Source of the DNA: a virus
Taxonomy: Duplodnaviria; Caudoviricetes
IMG/VR virus record: IMGVR_UViG_3300017911_001490
Location: 16,598 to 80,597 of that record
Strand: one strand, 5' to 3'
DNA length: 64,000 nucleotides
Part shown: positions 20,186-23,661 of the stretch, one piece after another
Numbering within the stretch: the stretch's first letter is position 1
How the letters are laid out: each line of letters begins with the position of its first letter
Program-made: the position numbers and the translations under genes
Notes under the pieces: model-generated
What the model was told of the DNA's origin: nothing
Database searches by the model: none
The model's input: only the letters and a program-made list of their open reading frames with translations

Positions 20186-20314
20186 TTATGATTCCTTTTG
20201 TTGTTTGTTAGACGAGGCGTTTTGCCTCGTTGCTAAATATCTGATTTGTGCCCTTCTGCGTTTCCCTTTCAGTCCGCCGAACGCACCCTTTTGTCCTTTG
20301 CTTTTACTGCTCAT
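20186..20314 (-). CDS. Possible 42 aa basic peptide
   Basis: ATGA coupling to the DnaB stop; fills the gap to ssb. Confidence 0.4.
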   Translation of the reverse strand: MSSKSKGQKGAFGGLKGKRRRAQIRYLATRQNASSNKQQKES

Positions 20315-21693
20315 ATTCTCGTAATGTCATCGAAGTCTAAAGTTTCACGGAATGATACCTCTCGTCTTCCGTCGTTGAGTGCATTATTTTCCTCTTGGAT
20401 AAATCTTTGGCACATTGGTTTGAATTTGATCTTATCTCCCGAATGACCACATCCACCGAACCTTTGCTTTGCCACAATTACTTTCACATCCTCTTTGTCA
20501 TCCCCAAGTAGATCTCGGTGAAGAAGGATTACCACATCTGCGTCCTGTTCGATCTGTCCGCTTTCTCTGAGGTCATGAAGTTGTGGTTCTGATCCACGCT
20601 TGACTGAATCTCTGTTTAGCTGAGCGATTAAGAATACTGGAAGATTTAATTCCTTTGCCAATGCCTTGGATAATCTACTGATCTCAGCGACCTGTTGCTC
20701 TCTTGGCATTTTTGAATCCTCAGGTTTTACGAGTCCTAGATAATCAATGACTATGCAATCAAGTCCATGCTTCCTATCCATGATCCTAGAGGTCGCACGA
20801 ATATTTCCCATGTTTGATCCTGCAAAATCATCAATGTAGATCGGTAGGTCTTTGCACTCCTCGATATTGCGAATCAAGGTTTCTGCATTCCTCTTATTGG
20901 TTTCTGCGTTGGTGGTTTTGTATGGCAATCCATTCTCTGCACCTGATCGGATGAGTCCTAGCTTTTCCCAAAGCGATTCGGATTTCATTTCGAGTGAGAA
21001 GAATAAAGTTTTCTTCCCTTGGAGGGCGGCATGATAAATGAAATTGAGAACGATGGTTGTCTTCCCAACGGATGGACGAGCCGCAACAATGTTTAGGTGA
21101 CTATCCTTAAACCCACCATTCAATCCGTACCTCAACCAAGGCAGATGGGGTTCTATTCTAGCGGGACCCTGCTCCAAGCTCTTTCTAATTTCGCTAATGG
21201 TTGACTTGGTCAACTCCTTGGAATCCATGAGCGTACTGCTCTTTGGTTTAATCAGATTCTGAAGTTCTCTTTCGGATGCCAATGCGTAATCCATTGGATC
21301 ATCCATTTTGTTTCTATCCTTCACCCTAAGGTGTAAGTCCGACCCAATGCTTTCGAGTTTACGGAAGTTTGCTTCCTTGACCATCTGATCAACGGCATAC
21401 TTTCCTTTAGCAAAAGTTACCATCTCGTGGGCTGGGAGAACTTCTTCACTGAAGTGTGGATATTCGCTGTAGAACTCCTTGGATAATCTTTGGTGCGTGC
21501 CGATCATTCCGAAGTCTCCTTCTTTCTCAGCTAGTACCGTTGCCATCCAATATTCCCTACAAGCGGGTTCTTGGAAGTGTTCTGCGGTTATGCCTTGCTC
21601 GATTGCGTAGGCGAATACTTTGTACATCTCATCCTCTTCATCTCTGATGCAAGAAATGAGTCCTCGTTCTGAGTCGAATTGCTCAGAAGTCAT
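20311..21693 (-). CDS. dnaB: DnaB-like replicative helicase
   Basis: AARPSVGKT, FFSLEM, IVIDYL, IAQLNR, DLRESGQIEQDADVVILLHR, VAKQRFG; start near 21693-21711. Confidence 0.95.
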   Translation of the reverse strand: MTSEQFDSERGLISCIRDEEDEMYKVFAYAIEQGITAEHFQEPACREYWMATVLAEKEGDFGMIGTHQRLSKEFYSEYPHFSEEVLPAHEMVTFAKGKYAVDQMVKEANFRKLESIGSDLHLRVKDRNKMDDPMDYALASERELQNLIKPKSSTLMDSKELTKSTISEIRKSLEQGPARIEPHLPWLRYGLNGGFKDSHLNIVAARPSVGKTTIVLNFIYHAALQGKKTLFFSLEMKSESLWEKLGLIRSGAENGLPYKTTNAETNKRNAETLIRNIEECKDLPIYIDDFAGSNMGNIRATSRIMDRKHGLDCIVIDYLGLVKPEDSKMPREQQVAEISRLSKALAKELNLPVFLIAQLNRDSVKRGSEPQLHDLRESGQIEQDADVVILLHRDLLGDDKEDVKVIVAKQRFGGCGHSGDKIKFKPMCQRFIQEENNALNDGRREVSFRETLDFDDITRI

Positions 21694-22240
21694 AATTACC
21701 TGTTGGTTCATTCGATTCCTTTGATTGAGTGTTTTTCCATCCATGTCCTGCGATCCATGAGTTTGGGTGACTGAACTTGTCCCCATCTCTTTTGGATTGC
21801 TTGACATATTCGTTGTAGGCTTGCGCCATTTCTTTTCCGCTCATCTTCGAATCGAGGATTTCATTCCATTGGTCTTTGATTGCCTTGGAGATTCTTTCGG
21901 GGAACTTTACAAAGTCCGAATGCCCGAGAAACGATTTGAAGAATTGCTCATGCTTGTCGACTTCGACAGAGTTAGATTTATCTAACGATAAATTCTTAGT
22001 ATCCCCCGCACGCGTACGAGGCAGGTAGACCTGTGGTGATACTTGAGCATTTATTGGTTTATTTTCTAAGTAGACCTCTGGTGATACTACAGGGCTACCT
22101 ATGTACTTTGATAATTTTTCGGCTACCAAAGATTTTATTACCGCAGAAGGAGCCATATCCACTTGATCGCAATACCATTCTAGCAACCCACGAAGATTGC
22201 CTTTGAAGCGTACAGCGACCTTTAAATCGTTATCGTTCAT
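21683..22240 (-). CDS. Putative replication initiator / helicase-loader-adjacent protein
   Basis: Immediately upstream of dnaB; C-terminal HPNSWIAGHGW resembles the lambda O/DnaD-type tail; internal 19-bp repeats. Confidence 0.6.
   Translation of the reverse strand: MNDNDLKVAVRFKGNLRGLLEWYCDQVDMAPSAVIKSLVAEKLSKYIGSPVVSPEVYLENKPINAQVSPQVYLPRTRAGDTKNLSLDKSNSVEVDKHEQFFKSFLGHSDFVKFPERISKAIKDQWNEILDSKMSGKEMAQAYNEYVKQSKRDGDKFSHPNSWIAGHGWKNTQSKESNEPTGNYDF
22025..22088. repeat. Two 19-bp direct repeats GTAGACCT(G/C)TGGTGATACT, candidate iterons
   Basis: 22025-22043 and 22070-22088, one mismatch, AT-rich spacer. Confidence 0.7.
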
Positions 22241-22565
22241 CTTGAGACCTCCACCCACGTTTCTTCGTTTTTGTACGAGGAGACTTTTTCCTGACTGACT
22301 TCGAGGGTGATCGCTTTTGGATCGTCTTCTGGTATAATTCCCGCAATCCTGAGCGCATCGACGAGATGCTTGACTCCCCCAACCAAATTATCCGGGTCGC
22401 AAAGTCTGACGCGTTTGCTAACAATGCGGACTCGATGGCGAGGAGAGTCTCCATATTCATATCTCGTTTCTCCCTTAACCTCTCCCACTCGTTCATTCGA
22501 AGAAGAGTATTTAAGGAAGGGGTTCGCTTCGCTATCCTGAGGGTTATTATTTCTCCCGATTCCAT
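22230..22565 (-). CDS. Overlapping-frame ORF resembling the RusA N-terminal half (ITLRI-x-x-x-TPSLN...W-x-R-x-x-x-KR)
   Basis: Open across the same DNA as the RusA-like ORF; ATG coupled to the upstream stop (TGATG). Confidence 0.55.
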   Translation of the reverse strand: MESGEIITLRIAKRTPSLNTLLRMNEWERLREKRDMNMETLLAIESALLANASDFATRIIWLGESSISSMRSGLRELYQKTIQKRSPSKSVRKKSPRTKTKKRGWRSQDER

Positions 22566-22572
22566 CACCCAT
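22237..22572 (-). CDS. RusA-like Holliday junction resolvase, catalytic C-terminal half
   Basis: RVR-x-x-DPDNLVGGVKHLVDALR-x-AG-x-I-x-EDD motif. Confidence 0.75.
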   Translation of the reverse strand: MGDGIGRNNNPQDSEANPFLKYSSSNERVGEVKGETRYEYGDSPRHRVRIVSKRVRLCDPDNLVGGVKHLVDALRIAGIIPEDDPKAITLEVSQEKVSSYKNEETWVEVSR

Positions 22573-22960
22573 TGTCTTTAACGATTGAAGAGGCTTTAGG
22601 CTTAGTTTTAACAATGTCCTTTAGCCTATCCTTAAGATCCACTCTAGCTTTCGCTAAAGAGATACCACGCTTATCTGCCCATTGCTTTGCCATGGCTCCA
22701 TCCACATACTTGCATCCCTTTAGGAAATCATTCCATTGAAGTACATTCGTACTCATTAGAATCTCCGCTACTTCAAATGCCTCGTAGGTAGAAATGTTTC
22801 CACCTTTGCGAAGTTTAAATCCTGGTATGCTACTTGGATCCTCTTCTAGTTTTTCTCTCACCAAGGCTTTTACTTGCTTCACGAATTGTTCCATAAGTGG
22901 AACTTTTGTCATGCAGTCAGCAATGTCCTCAATGCTATCCATCCACCGTTTCTCTGTCAT
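22565..22960 (-). CDS. Protein resembling the C-terminal part of DUF2800-type phage nucleases
   Basis: IPGFKLRKG motif; AGGAGG upstream of ATG at 22960. Confidence 0.65.
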   Translation of the reverse strand: MTEKRWMDSIEDIADCMTKVPLMEQFVKQVKALVREKLEEDPSSIPGFKLRKGGNISTYEAFEVAEILMSTNVLQWNDFLKGCKYVDGAMAKQWADKRGISLAKARVDLKDRLKDIVKTKPKASSIVKDNG

Positions 22961-23661
22961 TTTTCCTCCTGTAGTTTTTGTAAACACGAAAATAAGTGTG
23001 ACTTTGCTTCGGGACATGCCCACATCGCAGAACACCACTTACATTGTTTTGGTCCGAATATTCTCTCGGGATTCTCTGCGTAGCTTTTTGCTACAACTTC
23101 ATTTAGCCACTCTAGCTTCTTTTTTAGGACATCTGCCGTGTAAAGCACGGTAGTGTAAGTCGGCTCATTAAAAGGCTCAATCAACGCACAATAGAAATTC
23201 TCCACTTCTTGGTTATTATACCAATAGAGAACCGACTGAGCGATTAACTGAACATTTTCGGGGGCAGGGGAATGAGAGCCGTGGAGGGTCTTATAGTCTG
23301 CTATAAGAACGTCTACCCCCAAACGCTCAACATAATCTAGTTGTCCACTCCACGACTCATCAACCCATAGCCGTAACTCACGCTCGACCAACCCTTCGCC
23401 GAGCTTGCTACCAAATACTTTTTCACGACACTCTGCCAATGCTTGTCGACATCTGTATGCACAAAGTCTTCTTTCATCATCCTCAATTTCCTCAAGGGGA
23501 ACTTCATTCTCCTCGTTTTCATGTCGGACCGTTCCTTCATTGGCAGACTCGCGATCTGCTTTCCACATGAACTGGCGATTAGCTTGGAAGTAGGATGGGC
23601 AAAGACTTGCCGCCTCCATTTTAGAAGCAGATAGTTTTGCATCTATTTCCTCACTTCTCAT
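22957..23661 (-). CDS. PD-(D/E)XK (Cas4-like/DUF2800-like) exonuclease
   Basis: C...EGT-x-x-H, G-x-x-D...IADYKT, QL-x-x-x-S, C-terminal CKWC-x-x-x-x-x-CP. Confidence 0.8.
   Translation of the reverse strand: MRSEEIDAKLSASKMEAASLCPSYFQANRQFMWKADRESANEGTVRHENEENEVPLEEIEDDERRLCAYRCRQALAECREKVFGSKLGEGLVERELRLWVDESWSGQLDYVERLGVDVLIADYKTLHGSHSPAPENVQLIAQSVLYWYNNQEVENFYCALIEPFNEPTYTTVLYTADVLKKKLEWLNEVVAKSYAENPERIFGPKQCKWCSAMWACPEAKSHLFSCLQKLQEEK

What the first reader, a model, noticed from the sequence alone, without database searches (positions are those of the whole stretch)
22230..22572. Dual-coded RusA-like locus: the two halves of the resolvase appear to be written in overlapping frames of the same DNA
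Seen: two ORFs are open across the same 330 nt. Frame A (ATG 22565, TGATG-coupled) gives ITLRIAKRTPSLNTLLRMNEWERLREKR plus a long helix; frame B (ATG 22572, 8-nt overlap with the upstream stop) has a low-structure N-terminus then RVRIVSKRVRLCDPDNLVGGVKHLVDALRIAGIIPEDD. Established: RusA-like proteins begin with a strand, a PS-x-N motif and a basic helix, and carry D-x-DN...K...D...DD later in one chain. Inference: either a -1 frameshift from A to B (no classic slippery heptamer seen, and the fusion would shorten the helix) or a split enzyme whose two chains are overprinted and assemble in trans.
Basis: partly seen in the sequence, partly recalled or inferred. Interest (0 to 1): 0.7.

Follow-up and report, generated by a model that had tools for sequence, protein, structure and literature searches.

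The report
RusA-like resolvase in two overlapping frames
In this 80-kb marine phage, and in every related viral locus I could fetch, the front half and the catalytic half of a RusA-like DNA-junction-cutting enzyme are written in two different reading frames of the same 330 bases, both kept open by selection, so the enzyme is most likely built from two proteins read off one stretch of DNA.

Summary
On the minus strand, frame A (ATG 22565 to stop 22230) and frame B (ATG 22572 to stop 22237) overlap completely, with A one base downstream of B.

It is neither an assembly indel nor a pseudogene. All 105 distinct related viral loci, in 10-16 lineages down to about 35% identity, keep both frames open, while the third frame holds a median of 7 stops. 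Synonymous shuffles give about 0.005 for A staying open.

Selection switches from frame A (codons 1-41) to frame B (from codon 49). Around codons 42-48 the constraints of the two frames interleave.

A single-frame RusA-like relative, P0336, matches both halves (hhalign 97% and 95%). It has 14-18 more residues between the PSLN and DxDN motifs than the overlapping DNA could supply to a frameshift fusion.

No slippery heptamer is conserved (absent in 73 of 105 loci, including this window). Each frame has its own start codon and gains its own N-terminal domain in some clades.

My best reading is two separately translated chains forming a split RusA-like resolvase (about 0.5). A -1 frameshift fusion is the main rival (about 0.2). 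I found no description of this in the literature. Earlier agents of this scan reported the same layout on other DNA.

The parts
22230..22565 (-). Frame A ORF (111 aa plus stop). It holds the RusA-like N-half (strand 6-9, PSLN 16-19, helix 26-48), then a Ser/Thr/Lys/Arg-rich tail ending KKRGWRSQDER.
   Evidence: AF2 on the A alignment gives pLDDT 71 with E6-9, H18-23, H26-48, E58-61 and H64-81. Frame A is open in all 105 related loci.
22237..22572 (-). Frame B ORF (111 aa plus stop). It has an acidic, Gly-rich head (residues 1-44, with an ENPF motif), then the catalytic C-half RHRVRIVSKRVRLCDPDNLVGGVKHLVDALRIAGIIPEDDP...TWVEVSR.
   Evidence: More than 149 homologue clusters at 60-93% identity. 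1838 clusters at 50% identity match the C-half profile. PHROG RusA-like hit with E 7e-4.
22416..22565 (-). Stretch selected in frame A (A residues 1-50). Variation sits at A third positions. Conserved pattern: GEKITLxVKKRTPSLNTLLxMNxWxRxKEK...AIESAL.
   Evidence: hhalign to residues 6-33 of the single-frame RusA-like P0336 gives prob 97.4%, E 1.5e-11.
22240..22440 (-). Stretch selected in frame B (B residues 45-111). It holds D59, D61, N62, K68, D72, D83 and D84.
   Evidence: hhalign to P0336 residues 59-92 gives prob 95.5%, E 1.4e-8. It aligns to E. coli RusA 69-100 (RDLDNL..K..DAL..AG..DD), 41% identity over 32 columns, E 0.023.
22422..22442 (-). Junction with constraint in both frames (A codons 42-48, LAIESAL, against B RHRVRI). 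Diversity is low at all three codon positions.
   Evidence: Across the superfamily the B residue between V and I is R, C, S or G, that is NGC codons, which matches the frame-A Ala of SAL. In contrast, B H46, R47 and V48 stay fixed while A I44 and S46 change.
22563..22572 (-). Start cluster: B ATG at 22572-22570, the upstream gene's TGA at 22567-22565, and A ATG at 22565-22563.
   Evidence: In the window's clade the A start always abuts the upstream stop, and most loci have a B-frame ATG or GTG within about 15 nt. The same layout (ATGTATGA) occurs in the distant L140.
22516..22524 (-). B-head NPF motif, overlapping the A TPS of PSLN. The third positions of A codons T15 and P16 are invariant although four-fold degenerate.
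22237..22240 (-). ATGA: the stop of B overlaps the ATG of the downstream gene. The stop of A lies 7 nt further on, at 22230-22232.
   Evidence: In 105 loci the A stop falls between -107 and +19 nt of the B stop, mostly -8 to -29.

Best explanation
The locus holds two genuine, fully overlapping same-strand genes. Gene A (+1 relative to B) encodes the N-terminal strand, PSLN loop and long helix of a RusA-type Holliday-junction resolvase, followed by a basic tail. Gene B encodes a variable head followed by the catalytic strand-helix-strand-strand half (DPDN...K...D...DD). Each is translated from its own start codon; in this phage both starts sit within 7 nt of each other at the stop codon of the upstream gene, so terminating ribosomes could restart in either frame. 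The two chains then assemble in trans into a RusA-like nuclease that resolves branched replication and recombination intermediates before packaging.

Shown: both frames are kept open and are under selection; each half is homologous to one single-frame RusA-like protein; both frames have start codons.

Inferred: translation of both frames, their assembly, and junction-cleaving activity.
For: 1. Both frames are open in all 105 distinct related loci, in 10-16 lineages. The chance probability per sequence is about 0.005 for A and about 0.2 for B.

2. Codon-position diversity switches from A-type to B-type at codons 42-48. The constraints interleave there rather than switching cleanly.

3. Some four-fold B codons show no synonymous variation, or are strongly skewed towards particular frame-A residues. 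Examples are V64, G65, V92 and V97 invariant; Thr as ACG in 40 of 50; Leu as CTC in 38 of 42; Ile as ATA or ATT giving A Tyr or Phe in 44 of 51. In the other direction, A codons T15 and P16 are fixed so that B reads NPF.

4. Each frame behaves as its own gene. Frame B carries a CxxC...CxxC zinc-ribbon-like head in L134-L137 and other conserved heads. Frame A carries 80-110 aa N-terminal extensions in P0272, P0275 and P0278.

5. The single-frame RusA-like P0336 (phrog_1682 E 6.7e-17) matches the A N-half and the B C-half. It has 55 residues from the P of PSLN to the D of DxDN, against 110 or 122 nt (37-41 codons) in the overlapping loci. A fusion would therefore lack the end of the helix and the loop.

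6. A canonical slippery heptamer is absent in 73 of 105 loci, including this window. RNAalifold finds no strong consensus structure after the junction.

7. AF2 puts the A helix at residues 26-48 and the first B strand at 48-51. These share DNA at 22422-22431.
Against: The B head and A tail are poorly conserved as amino-acid sequences and look largely like out-of-frame shadows. The protein language model does not recognise frame A as a natural protein (recognition 1621). B alone folds poorly in AF2 (pLDDT 49), and neither half finds RusA by Foldseek or VIA-align. B start codons are not positionally conserved across clades. Why frame A must stay open to the end of B is not explained by the model itself. 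One clade has A_AAA_AAG in frame at a fixed place (27 loci).
Confidence: 0.5

Rival explanations
1. Programmed -1 ribosomal frameshift. Ribosomes start in frame A, slip back one base near the junction, and make one fused A(N-half)-B(C-half) RusA-like chain, which is the active enzyme.
For: The frame relation is right for a -1 shift. Selection switches from A to B at one place, and about 20 nt there are nearly invariant at all codon positions. One clade has A_AAA_AAG in frame A at a fixed distance of 60 nt 5' of DxDN (27 loci; also L048 and L051). An AAGGAG-like run precedes the junction in the window's clade.
Against: 73 of 105 loci, including this window, have no canonical heptamer. No strong conserved downstream structure was found. 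The model does not explain why frame A stays open for 33-62 codons after DxDN, or why frame B is open for at least 9 codons before PSxN. B-constrained codons lie 5' of A-constrained codons at the junction. A fusion would have 37-41 residues between PSLN and DxDN, against 55 in the single-frame relative. Frame B has its own N-terminal domains.
Confidence: 0.2
2. Both frames are translated, but they do not form one fold. B, probably as a dimer, is the nuclease on its own. A is an overprinted accessory protein, for example a basic DNA-binding or regulatory factor descended from a degenerate RusA copy.
For: B carries all the catalytic residues. The A tail is basic and some of its residues are constrained. 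AF2 gives A a self-contained strand-helix-strand-helix model with pLDDT 71.
Against: The A N-half is homologous to the N-terminal part of a single-frame RusA-like protein, and B lacks that part. B alone is predicted with low confidence. The N-half is the best-conserved part of A.
Confidence: 0.12
3. Artefact or decay: a sequencing or assembly indel, or a recently frameshifted pseudogene of an ordinary RusA gene.
For: A gene whose two halves sit in different frames is what a single indel produces. One ENA contig protein (P0123) switches from A to B at a different, later point, as an indel would.
Against: The same offset is found in 105 distinct loci from independent metagenomes, with PSxN to DxDN always 110 or 122 nt and both values equal to 2 mod 3. 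Both frames are under purifying selection. Both frames remain open far beyond chance. The genome is a complete 80.6-kb virus with terminal repeats.
Confidence: 0.01

Closest known systems
RusA Holliday-junction resolvase (E. coli DLP12 RusA; Pfam PF05866; PHROGs 34 and 1682)
   Same: It has the same motif order: N-terminal strand, P-S-x-N, basic helix, then D-x-D-N...K...D..L..AG...DD and two terminal strands. The B C-half aligns to E. coli RusA 69-100. Both halves align to a single-frame RusA-like protein that hits phrog_1682 at 6.7e-17. It sits in a phage replication and recombination module, next to DnaB, a Sak-like annealing protein and a PD-(D/E)XK exonuclease.
   Different: It is not one polypeptide: the two halves are in different frames of the same DNA. 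The spacing between the motifs is 14-18 codons shorter. Neither frame reaches the Pfam threshold, and a six-frame search of the genome with PF05866 finds nothing.
Rz/Rz1 spanin genes of lambdoid phages (my own knowledge; the rzpD/rzoD pair is visible)
   Same: Two proteins are encoded in different frames of the same strand, one ORF lies within or across the other, and the two act together as a complex.
   Different: Rz and Rz1 are two unrelated proteins, and Rz1 covers only part of Rz. Here the two ORFs overlap over their whole length and together carry the two halves of one known enzyme fold.
Programmed -1 frameshift genes (dnaX tau/gamma, phage tail chaperones G/GT; review PMC5009743)
   Same: The N-terminal part is in the zero frame and the C-terminal part in the -1 frame. 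One clade has the dnaX-type A_AAA_AAG heptamer.
   Different: No slippery site or stimulator is conserved. Both frames are open end to end, whereas in known cases the zero frame stops soon after the site and the -1 frame is not open upstream. The review does not mention RusA or resolvases.

Membership tests
RusA resolvase family (PF05866 / PHROG RusA-like) | Significant match to the family profile | tested here: inconclusive
   Pfam gives no hit for A or B. RusA scores E 0.03-0.11 in 3 of 52 family members. A six-frame PF05866 search of the genome finds none. PHROG 34 and 1682 give E 7e-4 and 1.8e-3 on the B C-half. Indirectly, the single-frame P0336 hits phrog_1682 at 6.7e-17 and Pfam RusA at 20.3 bits (cut-off 22.8), and it matches both halves by hhalign at 95-97%.
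RusA resolvase family (PF05866 / PHROG RusA-like) | Catalytic acidic residues and lysine (E. coli D70, D72, K76, D91) in the motif D-x-D-N...K...D...DD | tested here: met
   B has D59, D61, N62, K68, D72 and D83/D84. D59, D61, N62, K68, D72 and D83 are invariant, and D, D, K and D are invariant across distant members. They are aligned to RusA 69-100.
RusA resolvase family (PF05866 / PHROG RusA-like) | N-terminal strand, P-S-x-N loop and basic helix in the same chain as the catalytic part | tested here: not met
   The N-terminal element is present, but in frame A, +1 relative to the catalytic frame, in all 105 loci.
RusA resolvase family (PF05866 / PHROG RusA-like) | RusA alpha/beta fold and dimer | tested here: inconclusive
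   AF2 of A alone gives pLDDT 71 and of B alone pLDDT 49. Secondary-structure order is as expected for the two halves. Foldseek and VIA-align list no RusA entry.
RusA resolvase family (PF05866 / PHROG RusA-like) | Holliday-junction cleavage | not testable with these tools
   This needs a biochemical assay or ruv-mutant complementation.
Programmed -1 ribosomal frameshift gene | Conserved slippery heptamer X_XXY_YYZ in the zero frame at the frame junction | tested here: not met
   It is absent in 73 of 105 loci, including the window. It is present as A_AAA_AAG at one fixed place in a single clade (27 loci).
Programmed -1 ribosomal frameshift gene | Conserved stimulatory RNA structure 3' of the site | tested here: inconclusive
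   RNAalifold on 35 sequences across the junction gives only short helices, -9.3 kcal/mol over 140 nt. Pseudoknots were not searched.
Same-strand overlapping gene pair (overprinting, as Rz/Rz1) | Two ORFs with start codons, both kept open and both under purifying selection | tested here: met
Same-strand overlapping gene pair (overprinting, as Rz/Rz1) | Both products made and interacting | not testable with these tools
No expression data were reachable.

The most novel reading that the evidence does not exclude
A whole superfamily of phage RusA-like resolvases (about 1800 clusters at 50% identity) is an obligate two-chain enzyme. Its halves are translated from two completely overlapping reading frames, with the ratio of the chains set by alternative restarts at the stop codon of the upstream gene. 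Current annotation, which calls only one frame, would then miss half of the enzyme in thousands of phage genomes.
Probability: 0.45. Interest if true: 0.88.

Novelty: new variant of a known kind. Interest (0 to 1): 0.8.

Why it matters
If the two-chain reading holds, this is a natural case of one enzyme fold divided between two polypeptides encoded on the same nucleotides in different frames, kept over deep divergence. That would have four consequences:
- It would be a clean model for how overprinted genes arise and persist.
- It would show that gene callers which discard overlapping ORFs systematically miss functional phage proteins. Only 3 frame-A proteins of the window's clade are in a 5.8-billion-protein database, against more than 149 frame-B clusters.
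- It would correct the "hypothetical protein" label on a very large viral family.
- It would give a compact natural template for building overlapping genes.

If instead a non-canonical frameshift joins the halves, it would be a new recoding site without a slippery heptamer. Either answer can be tested with simple expression experiments.

Tried and rejected
- Assembly error or pseudogene: rejected by conservation in 105 loci.
- Canonical frameshift site: scanned, not conserved.
- Transcriptional slippage: no homopolymer run at the junction.
- Conserved RNA structure after the junction: weak only.
- Pfam on A, B, 22 C-halves, 30 distant B members and 10 distant A ORFs: no hit above threshold.
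- Profile of the C-half against PDB sequences: nothing relevant.
- Foldseek and VIA-align on the AF2 models of A and of B: no RusA entry and no match above background.
- hhalign of the A N-half against E. coli RusA: no meaningful alignment.
- ESM Atlas: B falls in unnamed viral clusters, with a RusA cluster only at 0.84; A gives no usable hit.
- INPHARED phages: one weak hit only.
- GTDB genome contigs with the distant-member alignment: no relative; the first try with a too-diverse alignment failed.
- The upstream gene as a baseline for synonymous diversity: too divergent, with only 5 usable codons.
- I first suspected that the neighbouring exonuclease was also frameshifted. It is simply two adjacent ORFs coupled by ATGA.
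- Literature searches for RusA with frameshifting or overlapping genes found nothing relevant. The PRFect paper's "RusA/RuvC" citation is the 1991 ruvC identification paper, and the Arthrobacter phage notes refer to tail chaperones.

Full report
**What is there.** On the minus strand, two ORFs cover the same DNA.
- Frame A: ATG 22565 to TAA 22230, 111 aa.
- Frame B: ATG 22572 to TGA 22237, 111 aa.
- A codons begin one base downstream of B codons, so A to B is a -1 step.
- The A ATG overlaps the stop of the upstream gene (TGATG). The B ATG lies 7 nt upstream of the A ATG. The B stop overlaps the ATG of the next gene (ATGA).

The window is part of a complete 80.6-kb IMG/VR virus with direct terminal repeats. 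The locus sits in a replication and recombination module. That module holds a large ORF at 20311-21807 that looks like a DnaB-type helicase by eye, a Sak-like annealing protein, and a PD-(D/E)XK / DUF2800-like exonuclease.

**Not an artefact.**
- Frame B has more than 149 homologue clusters at 60-93% identity covering its full length.
- Frame A has only three database entries, because gene callers keep one frame.
- I fetched 66 viral loci of the window's clade. In all 63 that carry the motif, both frames are open over the whole stretch. The same holds in L065 and L066, which share only 46% identity in the conserved half.
- A profile of the frame-B C-half finds 1838 clusters (50% identity representatives) at E<=1e-3.
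- Loci of distant members again all have the +1 frame open, with P-[SL]-[LW]-N...HW..R...K......SAL in it.

Altogether there are 105 distinct loci in 10-16 lineages.
- The distance from the P of PSxN (frame A) to the D of DxDN (frame B) is always 110 or 122 nt. Both values equal 2 mod 3.
- Frame A stays open 33-62 codons beyond DxDN.
- Frame B is open at least 9 codons, mostly 16 or more, before PSxN.
- The third frame has a median of 7 stops.
- Shuffling synonymous codons of the selected frame leaves the other frame open with a median probability of 0.005 for A and 0.21 for B.

**Which frame is selected where.**

In 35 non-redundant sequences of the window's clade, A codons 1-41 vary at the A third position and are almost fixed at the A second position. 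From codon 49 on, variation sits at the B third position. The "conserved" ENPF of the B head is the A TPSL read out of frame. Likewise, the P.PKPEQ..VRHEPLG...GE motif of the annotated frame in distant members is PSLN...HW..R..EK read out of frame.

The switch is not clean.
- A codons 42-48 (22422-22442) are low in diversity at all three positions.
- Within that stretch, B H46, R47 and V48 stay fixed while A I44 and S46 change.
- Just downstream, the B residue between V and I is R, C, S or G across the superfamily. These are NGC codons, which keep the frame-A Ala of SAL.
- B-constrained codons therefore lie 5' of A-constrained codons.

Outside the junction there are further signs that the "shadow" parts are read.
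- Four-fold B codons V64, G65, V92 and V97, and two-fold K68, D72 and E82, show no synonymous variation.
- A codons T15 and P16 are fixed at the third position, so that B reads NPF.
- Across 51 diverse sequences, Thr is ACG in 40 of 50 (A reads Arg), Leu is CTC in 38 of 42 (A reads Ser), and Ile is ATA or ATT in 44 of 51 (A reads Tyr or Phe).

**Relation to RusA.** Direct profile matches are weak.
- Pfam gives none for either frame, and RusA at E 0.03-0.11 in a few members.
- PHROG RusA-like families give E 7e-4 and 1.8e-3 on the B C-half.
- A six-frame PF05866 search of the genome finds nothing.

The link comes through a single-frame protein, P0336 (120 aa).
- P0336 hits phrog_1682 at 6.7e-17, phrog_34 at 7.9e-16 and Pfam RusA at 20.3 bits.
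- The frame-A N-half profile aligns to its residues 6-33 (prob 97.4%, E 1.5e-11).
- The frame-B C-half profile aligns to its residues 59-92 (prob 95.5%, E 1.4e-8).
- The B C-half also lines up with E. coli RusA 69-100 over the catalytic RDLDNL..K..DAL..AG..DD segment.

So the two frames carry the two halves of one RusA-like protein. Structure prediction of each half alone gives the expected order of elements. A has strand 6-9, helices 18-23 and 26-48, then strand 58-61 and helix 64-81, with pLDDT 71. B has strands 48-51 and 54-57, helix 63-76, and strands 95-97 and 104-108, with pLDDT 49. Neither model finds RusA in fold searches, which is not surprising for half a fold.

**Mechanism.** Several results speak for two separately translated chains and against a -1 frameshift fusion.
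1. 73 of 105 loci, including this one, have no X_XXY_YYZ site between the motifs. One clade has A_AAA_AAG at a fixed place.
2. No strong consensus RNA structure follows the junction.
3. A frameshift does not require frame A to be open downstream or frame B upstream, yet both always are.
4. The constraints interleave at the junction.
5. P0336 has 55 residues from the P of PSLN to the D of DxDN. The overlapping loci have room for only 37-41, so a fusion would lose the end of the long helix and the loop. With two chains, the A helix (to residue 48) and the first B strand (from residue 48, with R45-R47 conserved) can both be complete, although they share DNA at 22422-22440.
6. Each frame behaves as a gene of its own. 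Frame B has a CxxC...CxxC head in L134-L137 and other conserved heads. Frame A has 80-110 aa N-terminal extensions in P0272, P0275 and P0278.
7. Start codons exist for both. In the window's clade the A start always abuts the upstream stop, and most loci have a B-frame ATG or GTG within about 15 nt. A minority start B about 33 nt further on (MC[KE]E.NPF). The distant L140 has the same tight layout, ATGTATGA.

I therefore favour two chains assembling in trans (0.5). The alternatives are a frameshift fusion (0.2), both proteins made but B acting alone (0.12), and an artefact (0.01).

Three things remain unexplained or weigh against the favoured reading. First, it is unclear why frame A must run to the end of B. 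A useful basic tail, or termination next to the downstream start, are guesses. Second, the B head and A tail are weakly conserved as proteins. Third, the language model does not recognise frame A as a natural protein.

**What could not be done.** There is therefore no co-fold, no read-level check and no expression evidence.

**Novelty.** Full-text searches for RusA with frameshifting, overlapping frames or overprinting found nothing that describes this. After I had formed my reading, the scan's own notes showed that other agents had reported the same layout on other phage genomes, and mostly reached the same two-protein conclusion. This is agreement between AI notes, not independent proof. The enzyme family and overlapping genes are both known. 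One fold divided between two fully overlapping frames, kept across a very large family, is to my knowledge undescribed.

Noticed in passing
window 22565-23661 (minus strand): The DUF2800 / PD-(D/E)XK exonuclease is one 356-aa ORF in L065 and L066. In this window it is two ORFs: 22957-23661 (234 aa) and 22565-22960 (131 aa). They are joined by ATGA, with an AGGAGG Shine-Dalgarno sequence in front. The same split (about 240 plus about 130 aa) is kept in the window's clade. It is an ordinary split into coupled genes, not a frameshift.
   Followed up: partly
window 22458-22475 (minus strand): Inside frame A, an SD-like AGGGAG (AAGGAG or AAAGAG in relatives) lies 9 nt before a nearly invariant in-frame ATG (A residue M36) in the window's clade, but not in distant clades. 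It could be an internal start giving a short A' protein, or simply the codons for K-E-K..M.
   Followed up: no
window 22516-22533 (minus strand): The acidic run followed by NPF in the frame-B head (SEANPF; EEENPF in relatives) is held by synonymous constraint on frame A. It loosely recalls acidic peptide tips that end in PF, such as the SSB tail (my own knowledge). Its function is unknown.
   Followed up: no
L134-L137 about 870-1000; P0272, P0275 and P0278: Clade-specific additions. There is a CxxC...CxxC zinc-ribbon-like head on the frame-B protein, and an 80-110 aa helical N-terminal extension on the frame-A protein. Other B heads carry W[TS]xxEY or KG[FYW]....G.[WY].[RK]P motifs.
   Followed up: partly
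P0123 (ENA contig of 1230 nt): A database protein reads frame A up to ...WLGESSS and then continues in frame B at LRSADIIPEDDP. This is a frame switch at a different, later point, most likely an indel in that contig.
   Followed up: no
27 loci of the L073-type clade, 60 nt 5' of DxDN: The dnaX-type heptamer A_AAA_AAG sits in frame A at the KKK of the helix, at a fixed position, in this one clade (also in L048 and L051). It may permit some frameshifting there even if it is not the general mechanism.
   Followed up: partly
window 22237-22258 and related loci: The downstream gene differs between loci (mosaic), yet its ATG overlaps the stop of frame B (ATGA) in many of them. The third-frame reading VGGG.KM is only the shadow of the B TWVEVSR end.
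   Followed up: no
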